Positions 10,301 through 32,045 of a stretch of 64,000 nt of DNA are shown in pieces. Every line of letters begins with the position of its first letter. Position 1 is the first letter of the stretch. The notes under the pieces were generated by a model. It did no database searches. It was given only the letters and a program-made list of their open reading frames with translations, and had not been told where the DNA came from. A program made the translations under genes and the position numbers. This DNA comes from Paramecium tetraurelia (Eukaryota): assembly GCA_000165425.1 (NCBI GenBank), contig CT867986.1, forward strand, positions 511,399 through 575,398, given 5' to 3'.

Positions 10301-13300
10301 TGGAATCTAAGCTTCATATGAATTTGATAAAGAAAATGGGTTTAAACTGTAAGTACTGAACTCTATGCCATCTGTATGAAATAGAGCCAAAGTCCTATCT
10401 CCTATTTTTTATGCATCTGCTAAGCTGTCAGGATTGGTGGATGTGAATCTATATATCAATTATTGTGTTTTGACTGACTATTTGAACCATCTAAACCACA
10501 ATTAGATGCTGTACTCTCTAGCCTCTTCATTTATATGGGTGATATGGTGTTCTTCTTCGATTGTAGCAACATCATGCTTTCCTATCAAAACTTCATAATT
10601 CTTTGTTGGTGATAGAGTATCTGGAATAGTGTCCTTATTTTTTATCCTTTGTAACAAACCTTATTTCGAGTCAACATAAGATCCAGGTCCCAAATTGAAA
10701 CGAATTGTTGTGATTTGACCATTGAATGTTGAATAATATTTTCCTGCATTACCTATAATTAATTACAAATAATCGTTTAATAATGAATGCATAACATCCA
10801 TCTAAATTCCAGAAGTAATTTATTTAAAATTGGAGAATGCCATTGCATGTCCTTGCGTTTATGAGATACGTTTATAACTGAAATAGAGATAGGTCCATTC
10901 ACTTTCAGATTCAATTTAATAGGGAATATCTCCTGCAACATTATTTGATTTTGTAATGACATCATATGTTGCAAAATGATATGAGGACTTTCCTAATAAA
11001 ATTAAAAGCACTCTGTCTCCTGGGGCATCAAAATCTTTGTAATCTCTATTAGTTGTTAATCTGCTCAATCCCATTAATTGTGGTCTGCTGTAAATTGTAT
11101 TTTTATTTGAGAAGTATTAAAATTTAACCCAATAACCATAACCATATTCACTGACACCATGTAAATGTAATTTATCACTTTGTTCAAATTCAATCTTTAA
11201 GGGAACATCTTTATTTTGGGATGAACACTCTAAGATAGTTTCTTCATTATGCGCTTCTTAACCAGCTTATTATAATTTGATGTGATCTGTTCCACTAATG
11301 AATCCAAAATGAACTTTGATATTTTCATTTTCATCAAAGCCACCTTCTCTAAAAGCGCCGTCTCCAACGTTAATCACCCATGTCTTAATTTAACCTATAA
11401 ATTTGGAGAATTATTGTTTCTCTTAAATTAATACTGAAAACACAGCTAAGTAAAAATGATTTACTTCTTCTTATCTGAATTCACTCTCTGTAAATGTGTA
11501 CTTCAAATACCCATATGTTTTTCTTAATGATTGAGAAAATCCATAATAAATATAAGTCCATTGATCTGCATATTCACCATATTATTCATCATGAGCAGCC
11601 AATTTATACTCTTCTTCATTTTGATTGTAAGTAATGAAAGTAAAGGCTTGATCTCCCCTTGTAATTTGTAAAGTTTCCTCATTTTTGCCATCCAAATCAT
11701 CTATTCTTTTTTAAGCCATAGTAATAAGATGAGCAATTTTTCCGGTTTTTAAAGGCCCATTCCATTTAACCCATCCTGATAATGCATATTCTTCAGCTCC
11801 TTGATACTTTTCGAATTCGAATTAGATTGGTTCTTCTTTAATTTATTGAGGAGCGCCAACTAATTACAATGTTTGTCTTGAAATTGGATGGATATAAGCA
11901 CTTTCTGGAAGAGAATTTTGAGTATATAATTTCAAAATATCAGTTGTTGAAATAAACGACCCTGGTCCAAAGGAGAAAGTAATCCTAGCCATTTCACCAT
12001 TGAATAATGGAGCAGCAGTTTTGCCAATTACGAATTCTACATATTCAAATAAAAAGTCATGATATGTATCAAAGCTGATTTCCTCTACTTCCCCATCAAC
12101 TCCATTTTGAACATATCCCTTGGCTAATCCTTTATCTACATGTCTCTTGTATCCAAAGTAAACATAATGCCAGCGACCTTCCAATACTGTGAATGGAAGT
12201 TCTTCCTTCTCTTCTAAGGTTTAAAATTCGTAAGAATCGGTTGTTAGTGCTATAGACAAAGTTGTATCCTTCGGCGTAGTTGGTCTGTTAGCATTTAATC
12301 TCACAAGTTTTCCATTAACCGAATCAATCACATACCCTTAAGTTCCCAATCTGGCTATATTATGGATTGGAGCTCTTTTATTCAAATATTTGGGCAATGT
12401 GCTCAACCATCTAGTCCACATTCCGAATGCATATTCACTTTATCCATTAATCTTCATGCCTTCATCATTGTGAATTATAATCTTATCAACAACATTTTCA
12501 GCAGAATCATATTGAACATATCTCGCAGAGGTTATGTCTCCACCAACATATGTCACAGGTTTACCCACTTAATAAACTGCCATTACTCCATCTCCATAGT
12601 TGAATGTCATTCCAAAGTCTAGTCCTTCTCTGTATGCTCCAGTTCCCAAATAAATACCAACATATCCAATCTTACCATTAAATGGAGATATCACATCATC
12701 GCCACCAAGAGTAACCATTAAATTATTTACTAATTTATGTTAGATCCCTTTAAATTAAATTTCTCCTACTTGTCCTGGCTTGATAAGAGCACCATATGCT
12801 CTACCACCATCATTATCATAGCCAAAGTATACGTAAGTCCAAATAAACTCTTAACTTTCAACTGTCTTTGATAAATATGATTATCCTTTTGCTTTACTTC
12901 CTTTAATTGTGTAAGTGTTAAAATAAATGGCACATTTTGCTCCTCCTCCGAAAGTATGATGCAATTCTAATGCTCTATCTCCTAAAACTCCTTTTCCTGG
13001 AGCTTTATTCTTGTTTGATCTTAAATTAACTATTTAAAATGTATTAGGTTCATCTACTTTAAGATCATCGATCCATCTAAACCATAATCCGACAGCATAT
13101 TCTTCAATAATTAATTATGATTCTTGTGGATCAAAATGGAATGACTCGCCCTATTCATTTCCATTGAAAGATTTTGGTTTCGTCAATATATTCTCATCAA
13201 TAACTGCAGGAACATTCTAAGGTGGATTACTCAAAGTCTTAAGCACTTCATCTAATGCATCATCCCCATCAATAAATGCTGGAGCATCAATATCATAAAA

Positions 13301-15546
13301 TATATTAGCAAATTAACCATTTAATCCATAATAATTCATGTGTTTACCTCCAAATATCATTTTTATATAAGAAGGAGGAATGTGAGTTGCATCAATTTCA
13401 ACTCTGTAAATTCCATTCCCTTCTCCATAGCTAGCAACATATCCTACAGCCTTTCTTAAAGGACTGCTATACGAGAACATCACAAAATACCACATTCCAT
13501 CCATATTCTCATCTAATACTACAGCCTTATCCTTAGTTTTTACCTTGTCACTTGTATCATAAGTACTGAACACGAATGAATTATCAAATAAAAAAATAGC
13601 TAAGGCTCTATCCCCATAAAATGAAAAATCATCAAATTCCTCATTAATAGTCATTCTTGAAAGGAAATAATACTCTCCCTCTTCTCTAGCATGCTCCTTA
13701 GTGCCATGCTCGCAATATCTCACCCAATATCCAAAACCATATTCAGATGAATCCTATAATAATGCTCTATCATTAAATTCAAACTATTCCGTAGCTTCTC
13801 CATCGAATTAAGAATCCTAATATTTTGTATTTACCGCAACAATTTTTCTTTCTTAAACCCTCCCTATATTAGCTTTATGTTTTGGTGGTTGAAAGGCAGT
13901 TGGTTCATTTACATCAATGTCTTCTCTTAATGATTATATTTTGAATGATCTCTCATCCTCAATTTATTATTATCTTAACTTCTTAGGGTCTTCTGGTTCT
14001 GTTTCTACTTCTTATTGCTTTTTACTACTTTCAGAAGTTTTCTACACTTTTGTAGATTAAATGGAATCAAACTTTTCTTCAACCTCAGTCTCTCCCTCTT
14101 GACTACTGTCAGAGTTTCTCTAAACTTTTGTAGATTAAATTGTATCAACTTTTTCTTCAACTTGAGTTTCTTCTTCTAATGGCTTATCACTACTATCAGA
14201 TGTTCTCTAGACTTTTGTAGATTATATTGAATTAACGTTTTCTTCAACCTGAATATCTCCATCGTCTGATTGATTTTATAATGGCTTATCACTACTATCA
14301 GAGTTTCTCTAGACCTTTGTAGATTAAACTGAGTTAAAATTTTCTTCAACATGAATTTCCTCTTCTTCTGATTGATTTTTTACTTCTAGTGGCTTATTAC
14401 TATTTTCAAAGGTTCTCTACACTTTTGAGGATTAAATTGAATTAAATTTTTCTTCAACTTAGGTTTCTCCTTCTCCTTAATTATTATTATCATTTGAAAT
14501 AATGTCATCGGACGAATGATATTCTTAATTATCTAAATCTTCGACTTTGAAAACTTTTACTGCTTATACGACATTTTCAGTTTCAGTTTCGGTTTTTTAA
14601 GACTCGGAATTTTAATTTTCATGATTATTCAAGTTATCCTCATCAGAATTCTTAACTTTTCCATCAATCTCATGCCCCAAAGCTATATATCTTTTGTTTC
14701 CTTTAGTTTCCTATTTTATATCATTAGACACATCCTTATTTAGTTGATCCTTTTATTTTTCCCGAATCAAATGATATGTTTCATGATCAATGTCATCAAT
14801 TAATGATTCTAAATCCTCTTCTTCAAAATAATAATATATTGTTTCTCCTGGCATTTCATCATAGTAAATAATGTCCTCTTCCGAATCAGGTTCATCTTCA
14901 AAAATTCTTCTTACCTTTTTGATGTCCTATTAGCAGAATCTCCTTAACGTTTTAAGTTATGTAACTTTTTATCTCAAATTTACAGTTCTCTGAACGTATT
15001 AACACTGATTCAAATATTGATATATTTGCTCCTAAGTCTATCTCAAATGAGCAATAATTTAATTTGCCAATTATATTTTCTCCTCATTTGCTACTATATA
15101 TTTTCATTATACTTTATGTAGCATTCAATTAGCCAACATATTCAAGAGCATCTTCAACTCTGCAGGCCGCCCACTTATTTTGAATAAAAATATTCTAAAG
15201 AGACTATTCAATTTTTTATTTTATTTCCACCAACATAGTTTAATGAATTACAGACATTGTCCCTTTCGCTTTCTCAACTATATTTATGATTGTATTGATT
15301 ATCGCTAAATCTTTTATCAATTATTCTCGATTATCAATAATATCTATCCATCTCTCTAATTCAGCAATGATGAAATCGAAATTAGCATGGCAACTCAAGC
15401 GAGAAACATCTATATTATATGCTTCATTGTAAGTCAGCCCTATCTAATTGTGCAAAAATACCTCGAGTTCGGAGCTCTGATGCTTCTAATTTCGAAGAAA
15501 TGGCTACAACGATCAATAGAATGAAAGTTATAAAGGTTTTCTTCAT
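7349..15546 (-). CDS. Giant secreted protein (~2,700 aa): signal peptide, helical N-domain, acidic repeat linker, ten ~215-aa ConA/LamG-like beta modules
   Basis: N-terminus MKKTFITFILLIVVAISS. Ten recurrences of EY(A/G/S)xxxWx(R/K)(W/Y/F)...GDRxLA...WxY(V/I)YF(G/S)Y...GG...FNG...GxG(A/S)(F/Y). 22-26-nt introns near both ends. No C-terminal TM segment. The fold is inferred. Confidence 0.85.
14030..14470 (-). repeat. Five imperfect coding repeats (~27-40 aa) in the acidic linker, core VEE(K/N)xx(S/T)(I/V)QS(T/S)KVQ(K/R)T
   Basis: The motif 'ttttgtagattaaat..ttttcttcaac' recurs near 14050, 14125, 14215, 14315 and 14425. Confidence 0.85.
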
Positions 15547-16476
15547 TTTAGAAAAAATATAAAATATATACCGTTTTTATTGGTATTAAATTTCATACTA
15601 CTCCAACCCTTAAATTCAGTTTCCCTTTCAACTATGAAAATTGCTGATTTTCGATTGAAATCTGATCACTTACTGTTTAATTTTAATAACGTCTTATGAA
15701 TTACAAACTTTAATTTCAGCATCATCATTAAAACTATAATGCGAAACTTTATCATAACTAATTTCTTAGTTGAAATGAAACAGAATTCTAATCAACAAAA
15801 TATTTGTATTAGTTATGGTTTAATTATTATACATCTAATAAATATCTTATTTGATTAATCTAGAGGTTAAATTTTCTTGTAGATTTAATGATTAAAATTT
15901 ATTTTGATTGGGAAAAATGTTAAAAATCAGCTTCTTAATTGCTTTGTTCAACTAAAATGATCTGATTTTACCCTTAAATTCTGTTTATCATCCAAAGATT
16001 TATTATAAGAATGTAAACCAAATATTTCTCATTTCTTAATTGCCATTGGCTTTGCATATAATTAATAATTTATTACTTTTAATTATTTATCAAGTAACCC
16101 TCTAGTTCTAAAAATAAAGCTAAATACAGCTTTTAGGAAAATATAATCCATTGAATATAATTAGTATTTGAATGAATTACTGTAAATTGATCCTCAAATT
16201 GTTGAACAATTTTTGAATAACTGAATATTTTAATATTTTATTTCAGAACATTGAAGGGAGCTTGAGAATAATATACACTCTTTTTTGATGATTAGTTAGA
16301 TTGATATTTTGATTTATGCTCAACAATTAAGCTTTCTGCCTTAATTAATTTTCATATTAAAAGATAAGAACTCCTAAAAATCTATGAATTTAGTTAGGCT
16401 TCTTTATTTTATTTTGATTTATGTTTATAATGAGTAAAATTAAAATAGTAAATAATATTTATAATTCTAATTAATT

Positions 16477-18045
16477 ATGTCATTCAAGAACACGTAGTAG
16501 TATAAAGATTAAAAGTTTACTAACCATCTCAACGATTGCGAAGCCATTTCAGAGATAAAGGTGAAGTTAGAGAATGTACCTGAAAATCCAGCTTAATTAG
16601 ATGATTAAGCAGCTGAACTCATAGAATCACAATCTTAAATAAAATTTTTTCTAGAAGAGCTTGATAATAAGCAATAGGATGAATTCTAATAGGAAATAAA
16701 AGATGATGAAGCTGAAGAATATGAGCCAATTCTTAATACTTAAACATAGGTTGATTAGAAATTGATATATTAACAATAACAACAATAAAAATAAAAGCAA
16801 ATCGAGACATTTCAATAGGTCAAAGAAAAATTATAAAGCAGGCAGACAGAGCCTCTCCCATCTGACAATAAATTAAATCAAGATATAATTTAAGATGATA
16901 TTGACATTTCTCAGAGTAAATTATGCAAAAGTTTGTTAAAGAACATAAATGACTAAGGAAATAATGAAGATACTGAGCTAATAGCTTAGCTTTATAGTGA
17001 ACTAAATGAAATGAGACAAAGAAATAAAGAAATGCAGATATAAAAAGACTTCTATTAATCTGAACTGAAAAGAGTGTAAGAGCAATATTAGAAAGATCTG
17101 AATAAATAGAAATAGATTTTTGAAAATGAAATAGCATCACTAAAAGCACAAATAAATTTAGCTAAAAAGGTAACAAAACAGGAGACATAAAATTTAACTA
17201 CAGTAACATTTTAAGAAAGATAAGTAATTTTAAAGGATTTAATGAATAAAATAAAAGATTAATAAGATAAAGTATAAGAAGGGCATTCGAATTTTAATGA
17301 AAAGCCTATTAATCACACGAAGCAAAATAATGAACCAATTTTAAATCCATAAACATAAAATTAAAAAGTACTTTAAGTTGTGGATTTAGAACATGAAAAA
17401 TTAAAAGACGTTGATAAGGCTTTGTAAAAGGAAGAACTATAGTAAGCGGACAAGAAAAAAAAAAATGCAAAATAACAGGAATCACCATAAAAATAAAAAA
17501 TTGCTGTCGAAAAATAAGTCAACCCACCTCCACCTAAAAAGTCTACAAAACAAGTTAGAAATACTAATCCTGAAATCAAATAAGATCAATAAAAATTAGC
17601 CCCATAAATGAAAGCAGAAAAATAAAACGAATCAAATAGAGATGCAATACTTAATAAACAGACCGCTGAAAACCCTGATGATTTTTTCAATCGTTTATCA
17701 AATCAAAGTTAATAAATAGGATAAGATTAATAGGTTGTTTTTTAAAATTAAAAAAATCAAATAAATCAAACAAAAGAAGATCACAAAGAAGAAAATTTAA
17801 ATTAGGCTGAACTTGAAACTTCTGAGAAGTAAAAAAAACAAGAGATTTTATAAAATCCTATCGATGACAATTTATTAAGTAATGAAAAGAACTCCTAATT
17901 GGCTCAATAGGATCCATTCTCTCAAAATCATAGCTAAATACAGAATCAAAATTCTGTAAAGGCATAAAAACAGATTCCCAAATAAAGGAGAATAAATCAG
18001 GGAGGCAATAGCATATAGAATGTTCCAAGTTCCTTGTTTGATTGA
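16477..18045 (+). CDS. Hypothetical Q/E/K-rich coiled-coil protein
   Basis: ATG 16477 (MSFKNTQQYKDQKFTNHLNDCEAISEIK), long frame with no TGA, ends NVPSSLFD-TGA. Confidence 0.75.
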
Positions 18046-18452
18046 ATCGAACATTATGAGTTTAATTATATATTAAAATATGATAAATAAATATAAATCA
18101 TACAATCAGTAATATTAATTTGAATGAGATTTTTCATAGAGCATCAATTTTCTTAAAACATTAATTAATAGAGTTTTAAGTCTCGACATTGAAATTTTGA
18201 AAGAATACATGTCTTATTTTTTCCCAAATTGTCCATAGATAAATTTTAAGAAGAATTGTTTTGGAAACAGTTTTAATTGAAATTCTAATTAGTTGAGTTC
18301 AAACGAATTCTAAAGGCAGAATATCAAATATTGATTGATTGATTAATAATAATAAATTTATCAGTATCAATCCCAAATGAAGTTATTTAAAATTTAAAGA
18401 TTCTTATTTATTGAAATAATGTAGAAATTGATATTAATGTAAAAAATATTAA

Positions 18453-21400
18453 TCACTTTTTTGATTTTTGAGAGTATGATCCCATTTTTTTAAATTATTA
18501 TGATATAATTTCTTTTTTTTAGGCAGCTAATTAATTGCTTGAATTTTAAATAGAACTTTATGATGCATTTTAACTTTAATTAACCTGAATTATTTAATAA
18601 TATTTACTGAAGGAACTTCTTATTATCTATTACTCTTTTGAGTGCTTTAGCTAGTGTTTTAACCACTTTTTTTTTTATCATCGCTTTGGTAGGAAAATTT
18701 TTGTTAAGCAGCACTAATTATTATTTTTATTTTTACTATTTCTATTAGGGTTAAGGACTAACTACAGTTTTGATGGTTGAGCTACGGGAATTCGATCCCC
18801 TAACTAATTATTAAGATTGAGGAAGTGAAGAAATAATAATGGAAGTAGATGGAGCTTATGTAGCTCTAACTGGTTAACCAGATTTGATTTAATTTTAAGA
18901 TAATTGTTATTGTTCTTTTTATGGAGTACTAGTGAATGAGTTTCTAAAATTGAGTTATTTTGGTAATATTTATGATTGAGATTTAACTAATGTCCTTGAT
19001 CCTTTTTCGTCAGGACTTAATTCTATAGGCTCAGCTTGTTGACCTTATTCTGGAATATGTTCCATTGCTTGAATTTTATTCTCAGTGAGCATTTAATTAT
19101 ATTTTATGATGTCATCCTCATTGAATTCTATGAAGGTTTTTAGCCTATGTTCATTGAGAGAAGCTAATCCACACCTCGTTCCAAATTTTTTTATTAATCG
19201 AATTGCCTTTGAGAATCTCTCATATTATTAACTAGTAAATATATATATTTTTTACTTTATATAGCAAAGTTCATCAAACCCTATTTTAGCATTAACTAAA
19301 ATCATTTTTTAAAGAAGTCTTTTTATGATTTTAATGCCCACAACGAAGTTAGAACTCATATTGTAATCTTAGTCTGAGAAAGGACTGGATGAACTTCTAT
19401 TGTTTTTGTCAGAACCAACCCTATTTCGCAGGATATCTTATTGGGATTATTTTTTACTATGATCCTTTCTTTCCAATTACTTTAAAAACATTTTATCTGT
19501 TTCAGATATATCAGAAATATTTGTTCTATTAATTATTGCTTGATCATCCATAAATTATTCATGTAATTATTGTTAAGCTTTATTTGTTCCTTGATTTTTA
19601 TTATATTATTCGTTAACATTCATTAAAGATTTAGATTTAGTTATTTATGTTTACTCTATAGCTTAAATTAGTGATAGTTATGAGGAGCTTGATTTACTTT
19701 TCTTAAGATTTGGTTCTTAATATTTTGGGATTTTTAATTAAACATTTGGGTTATCATTTGATTATATTATTTTTACATAATTTCCTTCTCTATTTTTACT
19801 AAAATCACAATTTTTATAAAATGCCAAAGATCGATTAGAGACTTTAATTCTACGAACTAAAGTTTGATCTTAGCCGAGCTGTTCCTTCAAATCTTCTCCA
19901 AAGAGTAATTCTTCGTCTTTATAGTTTTTTCTTGTAATTATTATTTTTTATTTGTTACCTTTTCCTTCTTTTACTACCTCCTCAATCATTTAGAAAGATT
20001 CATTCTTGCTTAAAATTCTTTGCCAAATGTTGCTGCTCTTTTCACACCAACCTTTTTTCATTAAATCTGATGGGGAATTTGACTCAGCAAGTTGTCTACT
20101 TAAAATTATAATATCCTCTTCCTACTCATATAAATCATCTCCAATCTCTGGATCTTATTTTGCTTCATTTGTTTTTCTTTGTAAGCGACGCTCTACCTTT
20201 TTTGTTTAAGGATTCAATATCAAAATTTCTTCCTCTATAGCCTTTAATTATTGTTGCTTTCTTTTTTCACTAGAACTAGCAAGAAACTTATCTGTTCTGG
20301 ATCCATCAAAATCCGGAACCCTTATACCTTAGCTATTCAACTCTTCATTAGATCGATATTATGAGTCTCTTTACTCCTAGCTGTCCTCATCAATTTAATA
20401 CATTTATCTCTTTATATTTATGTTTGCATGCTATTTAAAATATTCCTTTGGAGCATCAGTAACCTTTTTCCAACTTTATAAACTATCTATCTAAAATTAA
20501 TTTATAACCTTTCTTTATCTGATAATAAAACCATTAGGTTATTTTTCATTTAAGTTTTTTCCAATCTATACTTCTGTAATGTTAACCTATTTTTAAATAG
20601 CAAACAATTCTGTTTAACCTGATTTTTAATTTGCTACTTCCACAATTTCTTCTACAAATTAGTATGGGTTATAATCTAAATCAAGATTAGTAACAATCCT
20701 TCGACTTATTATTTGATTACCATCAGAATCCTATTCTTTTAACCTTTTTCCAATTTATCTATTTACATTGTAAGGAAACTTTAATTAAATTATTTCCATT
20801 TCATTAGTCTTAGGATTTAATATTTAATGTTCTTCTTCAAAATATTAAGAATCTTAATTAATTAATTATTTGGATAATGCTGAATTGCCAGTAGATTAAT
20901 CTCCAACTTTTTTTAGGATTCCTTAATCATCTTTAACCCATCCTTCTTATTTAAGAGCAGTTAAGGTTTAGTTATTTTAAATAACTTTTCTTGATAAAAC
21001 AAAACCTCCATCAGTTCTATTAATTTTGCTTTCACCATTTATAAAGGGTCTTCTTTCAACAATTAGCTTTTATTATCCATCCTTGTCAGTTAAAAGCACT
21101 TCTTCTTCTATATACTACTCTGGCTCCTATACTGATAGTTACTTCACTAAAGTTCCATTTTTTTATTTAATCCATCCTGTAGTAGAATTATTGTCAACTA
21201 TTTTTCTTGACAAAATTGTATTTCCTAAAGGATCTACTTCTTATATTGAGTCTCCCATAACAAGATTGTCTTAGATTTACCTTCTTAGAAATTTTCTTTC
21301 TAGTTAACCTGTTTCCTTATTAAAACTTAAAATTTCTTCTTCAATATATTTGGAAGGCTCAGATGAAGCTATCACTTTTTCCATCAATCCTTCTTTGTTA

Positions 21401-24400
21401 GTTATCCATCCTTCTTTTTTTTTTGTTTCTGAAGAGATATTGTTTGAAACAATTTTTCTAGAAACTACTCTATAGCCTTATTATTATTCATCTATTTCAT
21501 CACCAAATTAGGTTTTGTTATCCTCGATATAGGGTTTTCTTATTAACTTTCTCTCTTGTTTCCCAGTATTTTAGTTGACAATTAAAATTTCCTCTTCAAT
21601 GAATTATTTTGGTTCAGAAAGGCTTACTAATCTAGTAAGCCTGCCTTATTCAAACTTCCATCCTTCTTTTTATTATTATTTAATTGAAGATATATTATCA
21701 ATTATTTTTCTTGATAAAATTTATTTCCCTTCCTTATCGATTTCAGTTAGATTGTCTCCAGTTTTTAAATTTTATGAATTTGGTGACAATGGCCTTCTTA
21801 TCAATGTTCTTTCAAGTTGTTAAGTTTATGGATTCATGACTAAAATTTCTTCTTCAATATATTTAGTTGGTTCTGTTTCACATATTATTTACTCTAAATT
21901 TCCATCTTTTTTCTGTTGCCATCCTTATTAGTTTAAATCATCAGATGAAAATTAATTTTATATAATCCTTCTAGAAATAACTCTTTCACCATCCTTTCCT
22001 TACTCATTTAAACAATCTCCATAATTAACTTATTCGTTAATTTAATATACTGGTTTCCTTACTAATTTACGCTCTTGTTTGCCTGTTTTTGGATTGATTA
22101 TTATTACTTCTTCTTCAACAGAATTATTCAGGTTCCTCTTATGAAATAATTTTTTCAAGAGTACCATTTTATCCTTTTTGCCAATCTATTTGGACTTAAC
22201 TAATAGATTAAGAATTATCGACTATTTTCCTCGATAAAATTCTATTTCCATCTTTATCAACTTCATTTAAATTATTCCCCATTTATGAATTTTCTTTTGT
22301 CAAAGGTCTCCTTACTAATTTTCTCTGTAATCCATTTTCTCCATAACAAAGTACTTCTTCTTCGACATATCTTGTTGGTTCACTTTATGCTAGTTATATT
22401 TCCATTTGACCTTATTTTTGTTACCAATCTTTCATTTAATCCAAAGATTATTCATTTGAAATTATCCTTCTTGCAACTACTTTTCTATTACCATCACCTT
22501 CTTATAGGTTTTCTCCTATTTCGCCAATGTCTGATTGAGTCAAAGGTCTTCGGATTAATTTCCTTTCTTATTTCTAAGTTTTGGGATTTATTATGATAAT
22601 CTCTTCTTCTATATATGCTTCAGGTTCTTACTATGAAACTACCTTTTCTAAATAACCATTATTCGACTAAACCCAGGTTGAGTCCATTACTTTATTATTT
22701 TATACAATCTTTCTTGAGACAACTTTATTTCCATTTTAGTCTTTCTCTATAACTGCTCCAGTTTATAATTTGTTATCTTAAGGTAAGTAAGGTCTTCTTA
22801 CTAGTTTTCTTTATACATTTCCATCTTCGCCTTAAACTAATATTTCTTCTTCCACATATTTTACAGGTTCAGATTAAAATCTAATTTCCATATTTCCATC
22901 ACTATTTTTAACCCAACCTTGCTATTTCAAAGCCTGATTTGATTAATCATTTTAGACAATTTTTCTTGAAATTATTTATTTACCATTTCCTAAATTTTCT
23001 TCTAAATTCTACCCAAATTACAAAATATCTAGTTCTTCGTTATTCAGTGGTTTTCTGATAATTTTTCTCTCTAATTTTCCTGTCTTTGGGTTGATTTGAA
23101 TGATTTCCTCCTCGATAAATTATTCTGGTTCTTCAGAATTTAAAATGATCTCTTCTTATTTCCCAACATTCTACCATTATTGTTTGTTTGCTTTAGGTTA
23201 AAGATTAGACTCTATTTTACGTGAAAGCACTTTATTTCCATTCTTATCCACTTCATTTAACTAATCGCCTTCTTGAATCTTTCCTCCCAAATAAGGCTTT
23301 CTCACTAATTTTCTTTCCATCATTCCTGTTTTATTGTTAAATTATAAAACTTCTTCAGTAATATATTGAGAAGGTTCAACTCCTAAAGATTATTCGTAAT
23401 TTCCATCATTATTTTTTCTCCAGTTCGAAGAAGCTAGAGACAAATCGTTATCAACTATCTTTCTAGAAACTACATAACAACCATCACCTAAATCCTCCAA
23501 AAGTTCTTCTCCTTCTTATATATTCCCATCATCGTCCAAAGGTCTTCGTATAATTTTCCTTTCCTACTTTCCTCCTTATCTCATAATAATAACTTCTTCT
23601 TCAATAAATTAAGTTGGTTCTTAAATGGATAAGGTTTTCTCAAAATACCCTTAATTGTTTTTCCATCCTTCCTTCTCAGCTTACTATGTTGAAGTCGTAT
23701 TTTCAATAACTCTTCTTGCAAGAATCTTATTTCCATTTTAATCAGTTTCTTATATATTATTTCCCACATTCTAACCAGGTTAATACTATTTTCTGACTAA
23801 TTTTCTTTCCATGTTTCCAGTTTCTTCATTCATTACTAAAACTTCCTCCTCAATAAATTTAGCTGGTTCATTTTGAACTATGAGTTTTTCTAACTATCCG
23901 GTTTTTTAATTTTTCTTCCATTCACTTAAAGAGGTGTCATTTTAAACAATTCTACGAGACACTACCTTTTGGTTATTGCCTATTGATTCATTTAATTAAT
24001 CTCCAATTTCTTCTTCATTTTCATAAGGTCTTCTAACTAATTTACGCTCTTGTTTGCCTGTTTTTGGATTGATTATTATTATTTCTTCTTCAACAAATTG
24101 TTCAGGTTCCTCTTATGAAATAATTTTTTCAAGAGTACCATTTTATCCTTTTTGCCAATCTTTTTGGATTTAACTAATAGATTAAGAATTATCGACTATT
24201 TTCCTAGATAAAATTCTATTTCCATCTTTATCAACTTCATTTAAATTATTCCCCATTTATGAATTTTCTTTTGTCAAAGGTCTCCTTACTAATTTTCTCT
24301 GTAATCCATTTTCTCCATAACAAAGTACTTCTTCTTCGACATATCTTGTTGGTTCACTTTATGCTAGTTATATTTCCATTTGTCCTTATTTTTGTTACCA

Positions 24401-27400
24401 ATCTTTCATTTAATCCAAAGATTATTCATTTGAAATTATCCTTCTTGCAACTACTTTTCTATTAGCATCACCTTCTTGTAAATTTTCTCCTATTTCGCCA
24501 ATGTCTGATTGAGTCAAAGGTCTTCTGATTAATTTCCTTTCTTATTTCTAAGTTTTGGGATTTATATATGATAATCTCTTCTTCAATATATGCTTCAGGT
24601 TCTTACTATGAAACTACCTTTTCTAAATAACCATTATTCGATTAAACCCAGGTTGAGTCCATTACTTTATTATTTTATACAATCTTTCTTGAGACAACTT
24701 TATTTCCATTTTAGTCTTTCTCTATAACTGCTCCAGTTTATAATTTGTTATCTTAAGGTAAGTAAGGTCTTCTTACTAGTTTTCTTTATACATTTCCATC
24801 TTCGCCTTAAACTAATATTTCTTCTTCCACATATTTTACAGGTTCAGGTTAAAATCTAATTTCCATATTTCCATCACTATTTTTAACCCAACCTTGCTAT
24901 TTCAAAGCCTGATTTGATTAATCATTTTAGACAATTTTTCTTGAAATTATTTATTTACCATTTCCTAAATTTTCTTCTAAATTCTACCCAAATTACAAAT
25001 TATCTAGTTCTTCGTTATTCAGTGGTTTTCTGATAATTTTTCTCTCTAATTTTCCTGTCTTTGGGTTGATTTGAATGATTTCTTCCTCGATAAATTATTC
25101 TGGTTCTTCAGAATTTAAAATGATCTCTTCTTATTTCCCAACATTCTACCATTATTGTTTGTTTGCTTTAGGTTAAAGATTAGACTCTATTTTACGTGAA
25201 AGCACTTTATTTCCATTCTTATCCACTTCATTTAACTAATCGCCTTCTTGAATCTTTCCTCCCAAATAAGGCTTTCTCACTAATTTTCTTTCCATCATTC
25301 CTGTTTTATTGTTAAATTATAAAACTTCTTCAGTAATATATTGAGAAGGTTCAACTCCTAAAGATTATTCGTAATTTCCATCATTATTTTTTCTCCAGTT
25401 CGAAGAAGCTAGAGACAAATCGTTATCAACTATCTTTCTAGAAACTACATAACAACCATCACCTAAATCCTCCAAAAGTTCTTCTCCTTCTTATATATTC
25501 CCATCATCGTCCAAAGGTCTTCTTATAATTTTCCTTTCCTACTTTCCTCCTTATCTCATGATAATAACTTCTTCTTCAATAAATTAAGTTGGTTCTTAAA
25601 TGGATAAGGTTTTCTCAAAATATCCTTAATTGTTTTTCCATCCTTCCTTCTCAGCTTACTATGTTGAAGTTGTATTTTCAATAACTCTTCTTGCAAGAAT
25701 CTTATTTCCATTTTAATCAGTTTCTTATATATTATTTCCTACATTCTAACCAGGTTAATACTATTTTCTGACTAATTTTCTTTCCATGTTTCCAGTTTCT
25801 TCATTCATTACTAAAACTTCCTCCTCAATAAATTTAGCTGGTTCATTTTGAACTATGAGTTTTTCTAACTATCCGGTTTTTTAATTTTTCTTCCATTCAC
25901 TTAAAGAGGTGTCATTTTAAACAATTCGACGAGACACTACCTTTTAGTTATTGCCTATTGATTCATTTAATTAATCTCCAATTTCTTCTTCATTTTCATA
26001 AGGTCGTCTAACTAATTTACGTTCTTGTTTGCCTGTTTTTGGATTGATTATTATTACTTCTTCTTCAACAAATTGTTCAGGTTCCTCTTAAGAAATAATT
26101 TTTTCAAGAGTACCATTTTATCTTTTTTGCCAATCTTTTTGGATTTAACTAATAGATTAAGAATTATCGACTATTTTCCTAGATAAAATTCTATTTCCAT
26201 CTTTATCAACTTCATTTAAATTATTCCCCATTTATGAATTTTCTTTTGTCAAAGTTCTCCTTACTAATTTTCTCTGTAATCCATTTTCTCCATAACAAAG
26301 TACTTCTTCTTCGACATATCTTGTTGGTTCACTTTATGCTAGTTATATTTCCATTTGACCTTATTTTTGTTACCAATCTTTCATTTAATCCAAAGATTAT
26401 TCATTTGAAATTATCCTTCTTGCAACTACTTTTCTATTAGCATCACCTTCTTGTAAATTTTCTCCTATTTCGCCAATGTCTGATTGAGTCAAAGGTCTTC
26501 TGATTAATTTCCTTTCTTATTTCTAAGTTTTGGGATTTATTATGATAATCTCTTCTTCAATATATGCTTCAGGTTCTTACTATGAAACTACCTTTTCTAA
26601 ATAACCATTATTCGATTAAACCCAGGTTGAGTCCATTACTTTATTATTTTATACAATCTTTCTTGAGACAACTTTATTTCCATTTTAGTCTTTCTCTATA
26701 ACTGCTCCAGTTTATAATTTGTTATCTTAAGGTAAGTAAGGTCTTCTTACTAGTTTTCTTTATACATTTCCATCTTCACCTTAAACTAATATTTCTTCTT
26801 CCACATATTTTACAGGTTCAGGTTAAAATCTAATTTCCATATTTCCATCACTATTTTTAACCCAACCTTGCTATTTCAAAGCCTGATTTGATTAATCATT
26901 TTAGACAATTTTTCTTGAAATTATTTATTTACCATTTCCTAAATTTTCTTCTAAATTCTACCCAAATTACAAATTATCTAGTTCTTCGTTATTCAGTGGT
27001 TTTCTGATAATTTTTCTCTCTAATTTTCCTGTCTTTGGGTTGATTTGAATGATTTCCTCCTCGATAAATTATTCTGGTTCTTCAGAATTTAAAATGATCT
27101 CTTCTTATTTCCCAACATTCTACCATTATTGTTTGGTTGCTTTAGGTTAAAGATTGGACTCTATTTTACGTGAAAGTACTTTATTTCCATTCTTATCCAC
27201 ATCATTTAACTAATCGCCTTCTTGAATCTTTCCTCCCAAATAAGGCTTTCTCACTAATTTTCTTTCCATCATTCCTGTTTTATTGTTAAATTATAAAACT
27301 TCTTCAGTAATATATTGAGAAGGTTCAACTCCTAAAGATTATTCGTAATTTCCATCATTATTTTTTCTCCAGTTCGAAGAAGCTAGAGACAAATCGTTAT

Positions 27401-30400
27401 CAACTATCTTTCTAGAAACTACATAACAACCATCACCTAAATCCTCCAAAAGTTCTTCTCCTTCTTATATATTCCCATCATCGTCCAAAGGTCTTCGTAT
27501 AATTTTCCTTTCCTACTTTCCTCCTTATCATCGATAATAATAACTTCTTCTTCAATAAATTAAGTTGGTTCTTAAATGGATAAGGTTTTCTCAAAATATC
27601 CTTAATTGTTTTTCCATCCTTCCTTCTCAGCTTACTATGTTGAAGTCGTATTTTCAATAACTCTTCTTGCAAGAATCTTATTTCCATTTTAATCAGTTTC
27701 TTATATATTATTTCCCACATTCTAACCAGGTTAATACTATTTTCTGACTAATTTTCTTTCAATCTTTCCTGTTTCTTCATTCATTACTAAAACTTCCTCC
27801 TCAATAAATTTAGCTGGTTCATTTTGAACTATGAGTTTTTCTAACTATCCGGTTTTTTTTAATTTTTCTTCCATTCACTTAAAGAGGTGTCATTTTAAAC
27901 TATTCGACGAGACACTACCTTTTAGTTATTGCCTATTGATTCATTTAATTAATCTCCAATTTCTTCTTCATTTTCATAAGGTCGTCTAACTAATTTACGC
28001 TCTTGTTTGCCTGTTTTTGGATTGATTATTATTACTTCTTCTTCAACAAATTGTTCAGGTTCTTCTTATGAAATAATTTTTTCATACATTGTACCATTTT
28101 TTTTCCAATTTTATAAAGAAAACCTACTATCTATAATTTTCCTTGACAATACATAGTTGCCATTGTTATCTTTTTCTCTTAAATTATTCCCAACCTTTCC
28201 CTTGCATTATTCAATTGGCCTTCTTACCAATTTTCTAATCATATTTCCATTTTTACCCTTTATTAGTACTTCCTCTTCTACATATTATGTTGACTCTGCT
28301 TAAGAAATTTATAATTCATAATTGCCCTCTGGATTCTTCTGCCATTCTTTACCTTATTACCTTTTTTCATTCTTTTCTATAATTCTTCTTGCAACTACTT
28401 TTACACCAAGATTGCTATCTTCATCCAATTCTTCACTTATCTCTTGCAATTAATCATCAAAGAATGGCCTTCTAACTAATTTTCTCTCCTACTTTTTTGT
28501 TACCTAATTATAAATTATGATCTCCTCTTCTACAAATTAATCTGGCTCTGATTCTGATAATTTTTTTTATAAAAATCCTTCTTAGGTCAATAACCATCCG
28601 TCCTGTAACATTATTTTTTAAGATGGAGAATTATCTAATATTTTTCTAGAAAGTACTTTTACTCCTTTCTAGCTATACTCTTTATCCAGCTCTTTGGCTT
28701 TTTCTTTTTCTATGTATGGTTTTCGTATTAAAATTTTTTCTAATTTGCCAGTATCCTTATTAAGTCTTAATATTTCTTCTTGTACAAATTTTCCTAGAGT
28801 TTCACTTTAATCTTTGTTTACCTCTACCTGCTTTTATATACTTTAAAATGGATCATTTTTTTCTCTGGTTTTTTAACTGCATTCCATTTGATGAATTTAT
28901 AATTATTCAATACCAAGATTTCTTTCCAGCCTTTGCATGTTTTAAAAGGACCAGCCATCTGCTTTCATTTGAGTTAGAGATTCATTGTTCTCAACAAGTC
29001 TTCTGCTTTCAACAATATCGCCATTCTATTATTCTTCATTAATGCCTTCCCCCATGGTAAGAATTTCTGGTGTTTTTCTTATTTATTTTCGTAAAATGCA
29101 ATTTCCCTAAAAAATCTTTATGTCTTCTTCTAAATATTAAATAGGTTCGTTTACAGAAATAATTTTTTTATATTTATTGTTACTTGTTAGTTCCCAGCTT
29201 TAATCAATTATCCCATTAATAACTCGACTTGCAATTAAAATTTAATCTTTGCCTCTTACTGTATATAAATTTTCATCATTTACATATGTTGAGGAGTCCA
29301 AAATGATTACTTCTCTTATTAAAACTCTATCCTACTTCTGTCTATTTCTAAATAAAATTTCTTCTTCAAAGAATTTTGTAGTTTCATCAAACTTTTATAT
29401 TGCTGGAGAATTTAGGATAGGAGAGGCATTCAATATATTTTTAGAGTATTTTTTTTGTCCTACTATTCTGCTTTAACCATAATTGATTTCTTTATCTTGA
29501 GTTCCAGTTTCTCCAACTGATAAATCATCGGCAATGCTTTATCTTCTTTTAGAAATTGCATCCTCAAATACTTCCTCTGATTAATTCGATTATCGTTTTA
29601 AACCTTCTAGTTAAGATCTAACTGTCTCCACTTATTTATTAAGTTCTTAATCATATCTTCTTTCTTTATGAATAAATTCTTAAATTTTTTCTTTTTCTTA
29701 ACTATTAGCTCTGGGGTTTATCTCCTTTATCATTTATTTTATGTCCTATGCAGAGTTGCTTCTATTTGAGTATACTCTTTCCCTAAATTCAAATGCAATT
29801 TACGGGTAGTTGTACATAGAATTGATAGTAATTTGAATGTCCTAGATTAAAAGTCTCATCAAATTTGCTTTTTTAACAGGGGATTTTGTTCTACTTTCAG
29901 AATAGTTTACAAAAGAACGGGCTAAAGGTTGCTGCATATTTGGAGTACGAGATAAATATGATTTTGGGAGAACTGCAGATTGCTTTAAGGGTGTCATTGC
30001 TGATTTATGAGATTTTAAAACTATTGGCTAAGGAGAATAATATATTCTAGATTTTTATAAGGGTATTGCAATTTTATTTGGAGTGTGATTTATTTAATGA
30101 TTAATAATCGAGAGTTTTAATTAAGTCTCTTATTAATGTACTTCAGATATTGAGTATTATTATTAATAAACTTGAATTGAACTTGATATTCCTTTTTTTT
30201 ATGTCCCATCAAGAAAACGTGACTTATCAACAACAAAGCCTTAAATTGAGTTTAATGTAAATTTTAAAATATTTTGAGGTAAAATAGCAGAATGCATAGC
30301 TTTTTCTGCATTATCATATCGTATTTATTCATAAAGAGCCTTCATTTCGATTTACTCATTTTAATAAAGATTTGCTTTATCTATTTTTATAAATTGTTAT

Positions 30401-31270
30401 AATTCTGTTAAACAAAATAAGTGTGTATCATTTTAAGTAACATTATGAATTTTTAATCGAATATCCAGCTTTTTAATTAATAGTTCACTTAATACCAATA
30501 GATATATTTCATTTTTATCTAAATAATTAGGTTAATTATATACTTGTGAGCAAAAATGAATATTGATCGTTAGGCAAAATTTCAGAAATAACTAGGTGTT
30601 CATTTGTAAATTATCTGAATTTTTAAAGCACCCATTTCTAATTGCTATAAAAACTTTATTTAAAAGAATCCGATAGTAAAAATATGTTTGAAGATCCTAA
30701 ATTTTAAGTACATTGTAAAAAATACCATCAATAAGTAAAATGTAATCCCTTCCAGCGCAAATTTTATTAATTTTTATCTATAAGCTGTTTACAATTTATG
30801 GTATTTCTGAATTTCCAATTGGTGTTTGTCCCCATGTCCACAATTTTCCTGAATAATCTAGACCGCATGCAAGATGAGTGGAAAGAGACACCTATTTAAA
30901 ATCTGTAGCAATTCTACTAGGAATAGGTAAAAAGTATATCTTTGAAATTCCAAGAGTGCCATAATGATTCTTATCGTCTCCAAAAGAATACACCTACCCA
31001 GAATATGAAAGTGCTAATGTCACATTTTTGTTTGTTGTGATGTACTTAATTTTTTCATTCTTGAATGGTAGTTAATAAAAGGAAAGCTCATAGCTGATAT
31101 AATATAGGCACCCTGTTTCAGAAAGTATCTAAAATGAATTTAAGGAAAACCCTTTACAAATTTATCTCACCTTACCGAACTATCCTAACACATTGAATGG
31201 TTTATAAGTATTCTAATTTTTAAAGAAAGCTTACCTGCTCATCATCATAGATATACAATATATCATTCAT
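18453..31270 (-). CDS. Giant protein (~4,200 aa): N-terminal RCC1 propeller, ~35 x 82-aa repeats, Q-rich basic tail; four apparent frameshifts in the repeat array
   Basis: ATG 31270 plus a 22-nt intron. RCC1-like motifs TLALSYSGQVYSFG..YGTLG and HLACGLDYSGKLWTWG. Repeat consensus GxR(V/I)(V/L)SR(R/K)IV...W...G..E.....EP..(F/Y)(I/V)EEE(V/I)...NPKTG..ERKL(V/I)R(R/K)P. Ends SQKSKK-TGA at 18453. Confidence 0.8.
22061..28084. repeat. Near-identical tandem triplication of a 1,974-bp block (8 sub-repeats of ~247 bp each) plus a ~95-bp partial fourth copy
   Basis: The anchor 'actaatttacg' occurs at 22061, 24036, 26011 and 27989. The same antisense ORF recurs at 22285, 24259 and 26234 in the ORF track. 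Confidence 0.95.
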
Positions 31271-31293
31271 TTTTTAATTAATATAAAGTTATA

Positions 31294-32045
31294 ATGACAA
31301 AATTGAAAGTCCCTGCAAATGATCTTGATTATATAAACTCAAGACAATATTAGTCTTATAAAATCTTTAGTGAACTTCATTTTGAGGATTTCGAAGGGTC
31401 AGTGGCATCAAAATTAATTTCTTGCACAGAGTTTACATGCATAGAGATTTGATTAGAGTTTTGAGAGCTTTACTTATATGTTGGTTCATTTGAAAAATAA
31501 TGATAATCATTACCAGCTTATTGAGAATTTTAAATAAGAGCATCATAAAAGTCAAATTTTAGAACATACATATTTAGTAAATCATGAGGAGATACTCGTA
31601 AAGATATTTTTTGTGATGATAATTCGTTGATTATTGCATTTATATAGAGAGCATCCATCTTCGTGAAATAAAATCATAAAAGTAATTTGCTTAATCGATG
31701 CTAATCTATAAAATTTTTTGAAGCCTATAAATTTAAGCATATTCTAAGAATTTGAAGTAAGAAGTTCAATTTAAAGTATACAGAAGGTATCGATATATTA
31801 AAAAGAATAGCGAGTGATTTTAAATAGTATAAAATTAAAAAATTAGAATAATAAATTAAAAAAGTGCTTAGGTTGTTAAAAAAATTTCGACATAACCATT
31901 TTATTACATTATTAAGATAAATTATGGTATTAAAAAAATATGATTTTATAATATAGATGAATTTTTTTTGGAAACCTAATTGAATAAAACAGTATATATA
32001 ATATTAGACGATTTTAGGATTGTTTAATTCCTTTGATAATATGAC
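31294..32045 (+). pseudogene. Possible decayed gene remnant
   Basis: ATG 31294 (MTKLKVPANDLDYINSRQ) in a start-like context, then coding-like stretches broken by several TGAs and frame switches that I could not explain by introns. Confidence 0.3.

What the first reader, a model, noticed from the sequence alone, without database searches (positions are those of the whole stretch)
18453..31270. Giant RCC1-headed protein built from ~35 copies of an unrecognised ~82-aa repeat
Seen: a 12.8-kb gene with RCC1 blades at the N-terminus, then a repeat from ~29400 to ~20400 with near-invariant G..(V/I)(V/L)SR(R/K)IV, W, EP..(F/Y)(I/V)EEE, NPKTG/GxxG and ERKL(V/I)R(R/K)P elements. Complementary acidic and basic strands joined by a NPxTG turn suggest stacked beta-hairpins. 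I cannot assign the repeat to a family I know, and it does not match the VPV-type alveolin/articulin repeats. Inference: an uncharacterised ciliate cortical or cytoskeletal scaffold or molecular ruler, anchored by the propeller, whose length depends on repeat count.
Basis: partly seen in the sequence, partly recalled or inferred. Interest (0 to 1): 0.8.

Follow-up and report, generated by a model that had tools for sequence, protein, structure and literature searches.

The report
Giant Paramecium protein with orphan beta repeat
This is a real, expressed Paramecium gene for a protein of about 4,200 residues, built from a weak RCC1-like head, about 41 copies of an 82-residue all-beta repeat that matches no described family, and a conserved tail; what it does in the cell is unknown.

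Summary
Window 18453-31270 (minus strand) is Paramecium tetraurelia GSPATT00004532001 (A0BD21), deposited as "uncharacterized". It has a partial RCC1-like head, a linker, 41 profile-detectable copies of an 80-87-aa repeat (31 strong, 10 degenerate) and a conserved ~420-aa tail.

- The core of the array is a 1,975-bp higher-order unit (8 repeats) present three times at 98.4-98.9% identity.
- The window's reading frame is broken at four 1-2-nt insertions.

Contigs from four public runs lack the extra bases at two of these sites. With all six bases dropped, 3,751 codons are open. Sibling-species orthologues are in frame. The breaks are therefore most likely reference errors, not decay.

The repeat matches no Pfam family, no PDB sequence and no solved fold. 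Named relatives come only from Paramecium, plus short unnamed environmental fragments. AlphaFold2 predicts charge-complementary beta-hairpins with confidence. Unit number is conserved: 41 in three orthologues, 50 in two paralogues.

My best reading is a two-ended structural tether or spacer. This is inferred, not shown. It is a new repeat family in a familiar kind of protein, of moderate interest.

The parts
18453..31270 (-). Whole coding region of GSPATT00004532001 (conceptually ~4,221 aa once the frame breaks are read through)
   Evidence: ATG and TGA checked. The length is my sum.
30730..31062 (-). Stretch with detectable RCC1-like similarity (about 2-3 blades). The whole head is roughly 30370-31270.
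   Evidence: PF25390 scores 37.9 bits (cut-off 150) and PF13540 23.5 (cut-off 22) on ORF residues 69-179. PDB hits to UVR8, HERC2, RPGR and RCC1 have E = 3e-4 to 1e-2. The extent of the head is inferred from the sequence.
30697..30725 (-). 29-nt GTA...TAG intron
   Evidence: An RNA-run contig (X17) lacks these 29 nt. DNA runs X3 and X5 keep them (table 4). Sequence read.
30519..30543 (-). 25-nt GTA...TAG intron. Together with the 29-nt intron it restores the frame.
   Evidence: Sequence. The X17 contig stops exactly at 30544 (table 8). Splicing itself was not seen.
31213..31234 (-). 22-nt intron of the deposited model (GTAAGC...TTAG)
   Evidence: Not tested with reads.
29413..30369 (-). Linker between head and array, with no family match
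   Evidence: Translation. No Pfam hit beyond noise. It is conserved at 38-40% identity with the paralogues as part of a ~530-aa N-terminal alignment.
28717..29412 (-). Three to four degenerate repeat units at the N-terminal side of the array
   Evidence: hmmsearch hits of 8.5-23.6 bits and 13-26 bits.
21004..28716 (-). 31 well-formed ~82-aa repeat units
   Evidence: 77-113 bits each. Alignments A1 and A4.
22100..28090 (-). Higher-order repeat: three tandem copies of about 1,975 bp (8 units, 658 aa) at 98.4-98.9% identity
   Evidence: A contig joint 28077->26100 ('goes back 1978') is seen in runs X3, X5 and X17 (table 5).
27853..27854 (.). Two extra T in the window (T8 instead of T6) that break the frame; probably a reference error
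   Evidence: Absent from the sister copies. 'Left out 2' in every covering contig of 4 of 4 runs (table 4).
27530..27533 (.). Two extra single bases (27530 and 27533) that break the frame; probably a reference error
   Evidence: Each is 'left out 1' in every covering contig of X3, X5 and X17; X20 does not cover the site (table 4).
24566..24566 (.). Extra A that breaks the frame; suspected reference error, tested only indirectly
   Evidence: No contig of the 4 runs shows an inserted base at the equivalent place, 26540, of the laid copy (table 4).
22121..22121 (.). Extra G that breaks the frame; suspected reference error, not tested with reads
   Evidence: Dropping it together with the other five bases gives one open frame of 3,751 codons.
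19744..21003 (-). About six degenerate repeat units at the C-terminal side
   Evidence: hmmsearch hits of -1.7 to 21.7 bits and 3-29 bits.
18453..19743 (-). Conserved tail with invariant blocks (IPKYQ; SDISETDKMF.KQLER; IEF.EDD.IKYN.ML.ENKI.AME; QFK.MGS) in an S/Q-rich context, interrupted by small introns
   Evidence: Six-sequence alignment across both paralogue groups. 35-36% identity over ~560 aa with the paralogues. No Pfam family.

Best explanation
This is an intact, transcribed nuclear gene of Paramecium tetraurelia for a cytosolic protein of about 4,220 residues.

**Shown**
- The protein has three parts: a divergent RCC1-like head, about 41 tandem ~82-aa units, and a conserved tail.
- The four frame breaks are most likely errors in the reference sequence.
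- The unit belongs to no described family. Its only named relatives are in Paramecium.
- Unit number is the same in orthologues.

**Predicted**
- Each unit is all-beta. An acidic strand (YIEEEV..) pairs with a basic strand (ERKLVRRP) across an N.xTG turn.
- A second hairpin follows (G..L.E.D..GN.VVSRKIV), then a less certain Trp-bearing segment.
- Consecutive modules have no fixed mutual orientation in the model.

**Inferred**
- The array is a long, semi-flexible rod or tether whose length is set by unit number.
- At an assumed 3-5 nm per unit, 41 units give very roughly 0.1-0.2 micrometre.
- The head and the tail dock its two ends to different partners, so the protein spaces or links two structures in the cell, most plausibly in the cortex or cytoskeleton.
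- The cellular site is not known.
For: **Identity**
- P0001 is 98% identical to the query ORF, and its 13 exact-match blocks map onto the window.

**Intactness**
- The window's extra bases at 27530/27533 are absent in all covering contigs of 3 runs. Those at 27853-4 are absent in 4 of 4 runs.
- With the six extra bases dropped, one frame has 0 stops in 3,751 codons, against 50 and 190 in the other two frames.
- P. pentaurelia and P. sonneborni orthologues carry the same three 658-aa copies in frame.

**Expression**
- An RNA contig spliced at the 29-nt intron exists, and RNA contigs lie over both head and array.

**Structure**
- The 3-unit model has pLDDT 77.2, with the hairpin blocks at 85-93.
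- The single-module model has pLDDT 81.4 and is all strands.

**Constraint**
- Residues are invariant across units.
- There are 41 units in each of the 3 orthologues and 50 in each of 2 paralogues.
- Head and tail are conserved at 35-40% identity between paralogue groups.
- I saw no signal-peptide-like N-terminus in the sequence. This was judged by eye, not with a tool.
Against: - No localisation, interaction or phenotype data were found.
- pTM is low (0.33 and 0.55), so the rod geometry is not predicted.
- The Trp segment is a low-confidence helix in one model and strands in the other.
- The head reaches only part of an RCC1 propeller by sequence, and it was not folded.
- Near-invariant surface charges could equally mean that each unit binds a ligand.
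- RNA contigs do not bridge 30178-30543.
- Contigs can drop minority variants. Site 22121 was not tested, and 24566 only indirectly.
- The 100% identity of copies within the orthologues could partly be an assembly effect.
Confidence: 0.42

Rival explanations
1. Multivalent binding scaffold. Each ~82-aa unit is a docking site for one copy of a partner, such as a small Ca2+-binding protein, a tubulin or filament subunit, or a nucleic acid. The array would organise about 40 partners in a row, as Sfi1-type repeats do for centrin.
For: - Charged residues that would lie on the strand surfaces are invariant or nearly so across units: R10, E48-E50, R63, R67.
- They also persist in paralogues and in environmental fragments. 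That is more conservation than a passive spacer needs.
- Giant ciliate proteins made of tens of partner-binding repeats exist (PMC9946354, listing and abstract start only; Gogendeau 2007, seen only as a reference).
Against: - No candidate partner is known.
- No Sfi1 or other binding-repeat family is matched.
- The charges are complementary within a hairpin, which is enough to explain their conservation.
Confidence: 0.25
2. Regulatory RCC1-like-domain protein. The head acts on a small GTPase or on a membrane site, as other RCC1-like-domain proteins do. The array only positions or holds it.
For: - The head's similarity to RCC1-family propellers is statistically significant (E = 4.6e-10 to PF25390; PDB hits).
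- Paramecium already has an RCC1-like-domain protein, Nd6p, that works in trichocyst exocytosis. I saw this title only in reference lists.
Against: - Only about a third of the propeller profile is matched, far below the curated cut-off.
- The head makes up under 8% of the protein.
- No GTPase link was found. Nd6p was not compared by sequence here.
Confidence: 0.12
3. Decaying gene. The four frame breaks are real, and the locus is a pseudogene or a set of fragments.
For: The window and the deposited model both carry the breaks. The model bridges them with non-canonical or coding 'introns' and out-of-frame stretches.
Against: - Two of the four breaks are absent from all covering contigs of independent runs, including an RNA run.
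- All four disappear when the bases absent from sister copies are dropped.
- Orthologues are in frame.
- The locus is transcribed and spliced.
Confidence: 0.04
4. Two genes: an RCC1-like gene and a separate repeat gene, wrongly fused.
For: No RNA contig bridges 30178-30543 in the two RNA runs laid.
Against: - After the two small introns, the frame stays open from the head into the array.
- One X17 contig runs 28618-30177, from the array into the linker.
- The N-terminal ~500-530 aa align as one block with P0004, P0005 and P0006, and 660-689 aa align with P0003 and P0007.
Confidence: 0.03

Closest known systems
RCC1-like-domain proteins with a long repetitive extension (for example RPGR; also HERC2, UVR8 and RCC1 as propellers)
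   Same: An N-terminal stretch is similar to RCC1 blades. It is followed by a long, highly charged repetitive region. The RPGR architecture is recalled from memory, not taken from a call.
   Different: Only ~120 residues match, below the Pfam domain cut-off. Here the repetitive part is an ordered 82-aa beta unit, not a low-complexity acidic tract.
Nd6p of Paramecium tetraurelia (RCC1-like domains, trichocyst exocytosis; Gogendeau 2005)
   Same: Same organism, and an RCC1-like domain in a large protein. I saw the title only in reference lists.
   Different: Not compared by sequence here. Nothing I saw says that Nd6p carries this repeat.
Giant ciliate cytoskeletal repeat proteins (Sfi1-like centrin-binding protein of the Paramecium infraciliary lattice; Spirostomum giant spasmin-binding proteins)
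   Same: Proteins of several thousand residues, built from tens of tandem units, lineage-restricted, and setting the geometry of a cortical network (PMC9946354, abstract start; Gogendeau 2007, reference only).
   Different: Those units are short, helical, partner-binding repeats (recalled). This unit is 82 aa, predicted all-beta, and matches no such family.
Alveolins, articulins and epiplasmins (charged short repeats of the alveolate cortex)
   Same: Charged, Val/Ile-rich, repeat-based proteins of alveolates.
   Different: No Pfam match to any such family at E<=1. The unit is much longer, with Trp, Gly and Pro landmarks.
Beads-on-a-string all-beta giants (titin-type Ig/Fn3 arrays, bacterial giant adhesin repeats, major vault protein repeats)
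   Same: Many small beta modules in tandem form a long spacer.
   Different: There is no fold match: best Z is 4.3, and a tetra-tandem adhesin repeat appears only at Foldseek E = 0.84. Vault_2 scores 17.3 bits, under its 23.6 cut-off, on one ORF only.

Membership tests
RCC1 / RCC1-like domain (PF00415, PF13540, PF25390) | Score at or above the curated Pfam cut-offs | tested here: inconclusive
   PF25390 scores 37.9-39.8 bits against 150. PF00415 scores 21.4 and 18.0 against 21.7. PF13540 scores 23.5 against 22 on the raw ORF, but 20.2 on P0001 and 23.2 on P0007.
RCC1 / RCC1-like domain | Seven-bladed closed beta-propeller | not tested
Sequence similarity covers profile positions 87-218 of 363 only. 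The ~300-aa head has room for about 6 blades; this is inferred from the sequence.
RCC1 / RCC1-like domain | Sequence similarity to solved RCC1-family propellers | tested here: met
   17 distinct PDB sequences match at E = 2.9e-4 to 1e-2, all UVR8, HERC2, RPGR or RCC1, over residues 62-182 of P0007. The match is weak and partial.
Any Pfam-A repeat or domain family (for the 82-aa unit) | A family matched by most units | tested here: not met
   15 units were scanned at E<=10. The first unit matched 0 families. 8 families were each hit by only 1 of 15 units, with best E = 0.0054.
Sfi1-type centrin-binding repeats | Pfam or profile match | tested here: not met
   Not among the Pfam hits at E<=1 for the four ORF pieces or at E<=0.01 for P0001, P0002, P0004 and P0007.
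Alveolin / articulin-type cortical repeats | Pfam match to an alveolin-type repeat family, or VPV-type short repeats | tested here: not met
   No such family appears. The consensus unit has no VPV periodicity.
Major vault protein repeat (PF17794) | Score at or above the 23.6-bit cut-off, recurring in units | tested here: not met
   17.3 bits on one ORF piece. Absent from the per-unit scan.
Any solved fold | Structural match clearly above background | tested here: inconclusive
   Foldseek gives 0 matches at E<=0.001 for either model. VIA-align against 48,161 chains gives a best Z of 4.3, with 0 chains at Z>=5. A weak match does not show that the fold is new.

The most novel reading that the evidence does not exclude
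The 82-aa unit is a previously undescribed all-beta module. The protein would be a molecular ruler or elastic tether about 0.1-0.2 micrometre long. Its fixed module number (41 in this lineage, 50 in the paralogue) would set a defined spacing in the Paramecium cortex. The near-identical 8-unit blocks would be kept uniform by gene conversion so that length is preserved.
Probability: 0.2. Interest if true: 0.7.

Novelty: new variant of a known kind. Interest (0 to 1): 0.5.

Why it matters
- Several fibrous systems of the Paramecium cortex have no known molecular components. This statement is recalled; I did not check it in a paper here.
- A conserved, expressed protein of ~490 kDa (my rough estimate from its length) is a concrete candidate for such a component. 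It has two distinct ends and a countable number of modules.
- It would also give a tractable test of length-by-repeat-number rules in a genetically accessible cell.
- The unit is a candidate new domain family for Pfam or InterPro, and a clean model for charge-paired beta-hairpins.
- Practically, the deposited gene model is wrong at five or more places, because the reference carries spurious bases in a near-identical tandem block.

Tried and rejected
**Searches that found nothing**
- Tandem Repeats Finder found nothing: the period exceeds 500 nt and the units are too diverged.
- No whole genome is held for this window.
- The ESM Atlas gave no usable hit.
- Earlier scan notes: none for this genome. 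One unrelated bacterial note shared 3 of 114 words.
- The tail searched among proteins of 621-2,000 aa gave no hit. That search also missed P0032, which carries the tail at 35% identity, so the blank means little.
- The profile search of 1.84 billion representatives gave 16 hits: 1 long Paramecium protein and 15 fragments of 30-121 aa. It did not list P0001-P0006 themselves, so its reach for giant proteins is doubtful. 'Restricted to Paramecium' therefore rests together and is provisional.

**Literature**
- No paper in the library holds GSPATT/GSPATP/GSPATG00004532001 or A0BD21.
- Supplements of PMC6819543, PMC3556005, PMC4124839 and PMC3091696 hold neither gene number. Some files were unreadable scans.
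- Supplements of the bioRxiv subcellular proteome of P. tetraurelia (10.1101/2025.04.24.650466; listing only) are closed. They may hold this protein's localisation.

**Ideas rejected**
- Programmed frameshifting or tiny introns at the breaks. The breaks are 1-2-nt insertions relative to sister copies, and they are absent from reads.
- The annotated 36-nt 'intron' at 28000-28035. It encodes the conserved turn, and an X17 contig covering 28005-28616 retains it.
- Copy number from contig depth. The tool states that depth is not a copy number.

**Limits of the read evidence**
- RNA cover is missing at 30178-30543 in X17 and X20.

**Not run**
Full report
**What is there**

Under the ciliate code the minus strand between 31270 and 18453 carries four long open pieces plus one 100-codon piece between them. 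The long pieces are 27781-31266, 24468-27527, 22115-24901 and 18367-22299. The short one is 27478-27780.

A database search identifies the locus as Paramecium tetraurelia GSPATT00004532001 / A0BD21 / XP_001423836. It is deposited as an unnamed, uncharacterised protein of 4,246 aa (P0001). Its sequence maps onto the window in 13 exact-match blocks.

The paralogues and the ohnologue start at this ATG, not at the upstream ATG of the deposited model.

The coding strand is strongly purine-rich over the array, with GC skew -0.31 to -0.38 and AT skew about -0.25.

**The repeat**

Splitting one ORF at the SR(R/K)(I/V) anchor gives units of 80-85 aa. A profile of these finds units from 29412 down to about 19750, with domain E-values down to 3.8e-36. 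In a second phase the units are 79-87 aa.

Fifteen different units are 38-83% identical to the reference unit. They share the following:
- invariant: R10, W26, G32, E42, E49, E50, R67;
- nearly invariant: I12, P43, E48, R63;
- consensus: G..V.SRKI..N..S.......W.....G..EK..S..EP.QYIEEEVL..N..TG..ERKLVRRP.........G..L.E.

In the frame-corrected reading there are 41 hits. Of these, 33 are near full length, and 31 are contiguous at 77-113 bits. The array region is 12% E, 9% K, 10.5% Q and 9% N, with net charge -49 over 3,220 aa.

**Higher-order structure and the frame breaks**

Windows 22100-28090 hold three tandem copies of a 1,974-1,978-bp block. Each block is 8 units (658 aa), and the copies are 98.4-98.9% identical to each other.

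Aligning the three copies shows 39 substitutions and four frame-breaking insertions, each private to one copy:
- G at 22121;
- A at 24566;
- two single bases at 27530 and 27533;
- TT at 27853-4.

These are exactly where the open pieces change frame. The deposited model steps over them with 20-32-nt 'introns', and after two of them it reads out of frame for a stretch.

I laid Logan contigs of four runs from four studies on 26100-31600. Two runs are guessed to be DNA, one is guessed to be RNA, and one is on record as RNA. The results were:
- The bases at 27530 and 27533 are missing from every covering contig of X3, X5 and X17.
- The TT is missing from every covering contig of all four runs.
- No contig shows an insertion at 26540, which is the place in the laid copy that corresponds to 24566.

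Contigs can drop minority variants. However, in X3 and X5 both forms of the copy-specific letters at 27136-27201 are kept as separate contigs.

Dropping the six bases gives one frame with no stop in 3,751 codons. The other two frames have 50 and 190 stops.

The P. pentaurelia and P. sonneborni orthologues have the three 658-aa copies exactly in frame. I conclude that the breaks are reference errors and not decay. I hold this with high confidence for two sites and moderate confidence for the other two. The conceptual protein is about 4,221 aa (my sum).

**Transcription and gene structure**

A contig of X17 covers 30544-31152 with 29 nt left out at 30696. The DNA runs keep these bases. The skipped piece is the GTA...TAG intron at 30697-30725.

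A second, 25-nt intron (30519-30543) restores the frame, and the X17 contig ends at its 5' edge. Introns of 22-29 nt fit Paramecium (general knowledge, recalled).

RNA contigs cover the head (30544-31152 in X17; 30747-31066 in X20), the linker and first repeats (28618-30177 as one X17 contig), and the array. Nothing bridges 30178-30543. One transcript is therefore likely but not shown.

The annotated 36-nt intron at 28000-28035 encodes the conserved turn, and an X17 contig covering 28005-28616 retains it.

**The ends**

*Head.* Pfam finds only partial RCC1-like similarity. PF25390 scores 38-40 bits against a cut-off of 150, over profile positions 87-218 of 363. PF13540 and PF00415 sit at the threshold. 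PDB sequences of UVR8, HERC2, RPGR and RCC1 match residues 62-182 at E = 3e-4 to 1e-2. I did not fold the head.

*Tail.* The last ~420 aa match no family. They share invariant blocks across both paralogue groups.

*Conservation.* Head plus linker is 38-40% identical between the groups, and the tail 35-36%.

**Relatives**

- Orthologues: P. pentaurelia, 3,943 aa, 88% identity, N-terminally short model; P. sonneborni, 4,219 aa, 80% identity.
- A second paralogue group at 42% identity: 4,860 and 4,851 aa, plus a 2,715-aa model.
- Fragments of further P. tetraurelia and P. pentaurelia copies (P0007, P0030-P0032).

Unit counts are 41, 41 and 41 in the orthologues and 50 and 50 in the paralogues.

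Within P. pentaurelia and within P. sonneborni, two block copies are 100% identical over 560 aa. Between species they are 88-92.5% identical. This suggests homogenisation, though assembly effects cannot be excluded.

Outside Paramecium the profile found only 15 fragments of 30-121 aa from unnamed sources. Their shortness fits ciliate DNA translated with the standard code; that is my inference. No named protein of another ciliate appeared. These searches have limits for giant proteins, as listed under Tried and rejected.

**Family and fold**

- No Pfam family recurs among the units.
- No PDB sequence matches the profile at E<=10.
- AlphaFold2 on three units gives pLDDT 77.2 and pTM 0.33. It places confident strands (pLDDT 85-93) at YVEEEV...RKLVRR and at G.NL.EV...ILSRKIV. 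The Trp segment is a low-confidence helix.
- AlphaFold2 on one module with 29 sequences gives pLDDT 81.4 and pTM 0.55. It predicts strands throughout, including the Trp segment at pLDDT 70-76.
- Foldseek finds nothing at E<=0.001.
- VIA-align against 48,161 chains gives a best Z of 4.3, below the usual background.

The overall fold and the packing of the modules are open.

**Function**

Nothing I could reach reports localisation, expression pattern or phenotype.

From the anatomy alone, I favour a two-ended structural tether or spacer (0.42). The anatomy consists of two different conserved ends, a long array of small beta modules, a conserved module number and a cytosolic-looking N-terminus.

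The rivals are:
- a multivalent docking scaffold (0.25);
- a regulatory role for the RCC1-like head (0.12);
- a pseudogene (0.04);
- two separate genes (0.03).

**Verdict**

The gene itself is already in the databases as a hypothetical protein. What is new:
- the unit is a well-defined, conserved, orphan beta repeat;
- the array has a homogenised 8-unit superstructure;
- unit number is conserved between species;
- the reference sequence and gene model need correction.

This is a new variant of a known kind of protein, the giant tandem-module structural protein. Interest is moderate.

Noticed in passing
window 22100-28090: The three 8-unit blocks are 98.4-98.9% identical within P. tetraurelia. 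Two copies are 100% identical within P. pentaurelia and within P. sonneborni, but 88-92.5% identical between species. This looks like concerted evolution of a 2-kb coding block held at three copies, unless the sibling assemblies copied one consensus.
   Followed up: partly
window 26255, 26440-26457, 31514 and other places in table 3: Several single letters of the window are not seen in any covering contig. For example, 26255 T is read as G in 4 of 4 runs, and 31514 C is read as A in both DNA runs. Some are sister-copy contigs laid on this copy; others may be further reference errors or strain differences.
   Followed up: no
window 31271-31489: The deposited model starts 73 codons upstream of the ATG shared by the ohnologue and the paralogues. 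The extension is probably not coding.
   Followed up: partly
window 7475-15070, minus strand: The neighbouring ORF of 2,531 codons has no Pfam family at E<=1e-4. By eye it carries its own large internal repeat, with recurring EYA.G.W.RW ... GDR.L ... STYD ... W.YVYFGY blocks. It is a second orphan repeat giant next door, also in a region of negative GC skew.
   Followed up: no
window 16285-18045, plus strand: A 586-codon Q/K/E-rich ORF with 72 TAA/TAG-as-Gln codons and no Pfam family. It lies just downstream of the giant gene on the other strand.
   Followed up: no
P0007 and P0031 (one 144-kb scaffold), P0030 (440-kb scaffold): The P. tetraurelia ohnologue of this gene is deposited as separate fragments. 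The N-terminal 1,096 aa end abruptly inside a repeat unit. The same assembly problem probably affects that locus.
   Followed up: no
window 20491-20508: An annotated 18-nt in-frame 'intron' (GTT...TAG) lies inside a degenerate unit. It is shorter than the other introns seen here, which are 22-29 nt, so it is doubtful.
   Followed up: no
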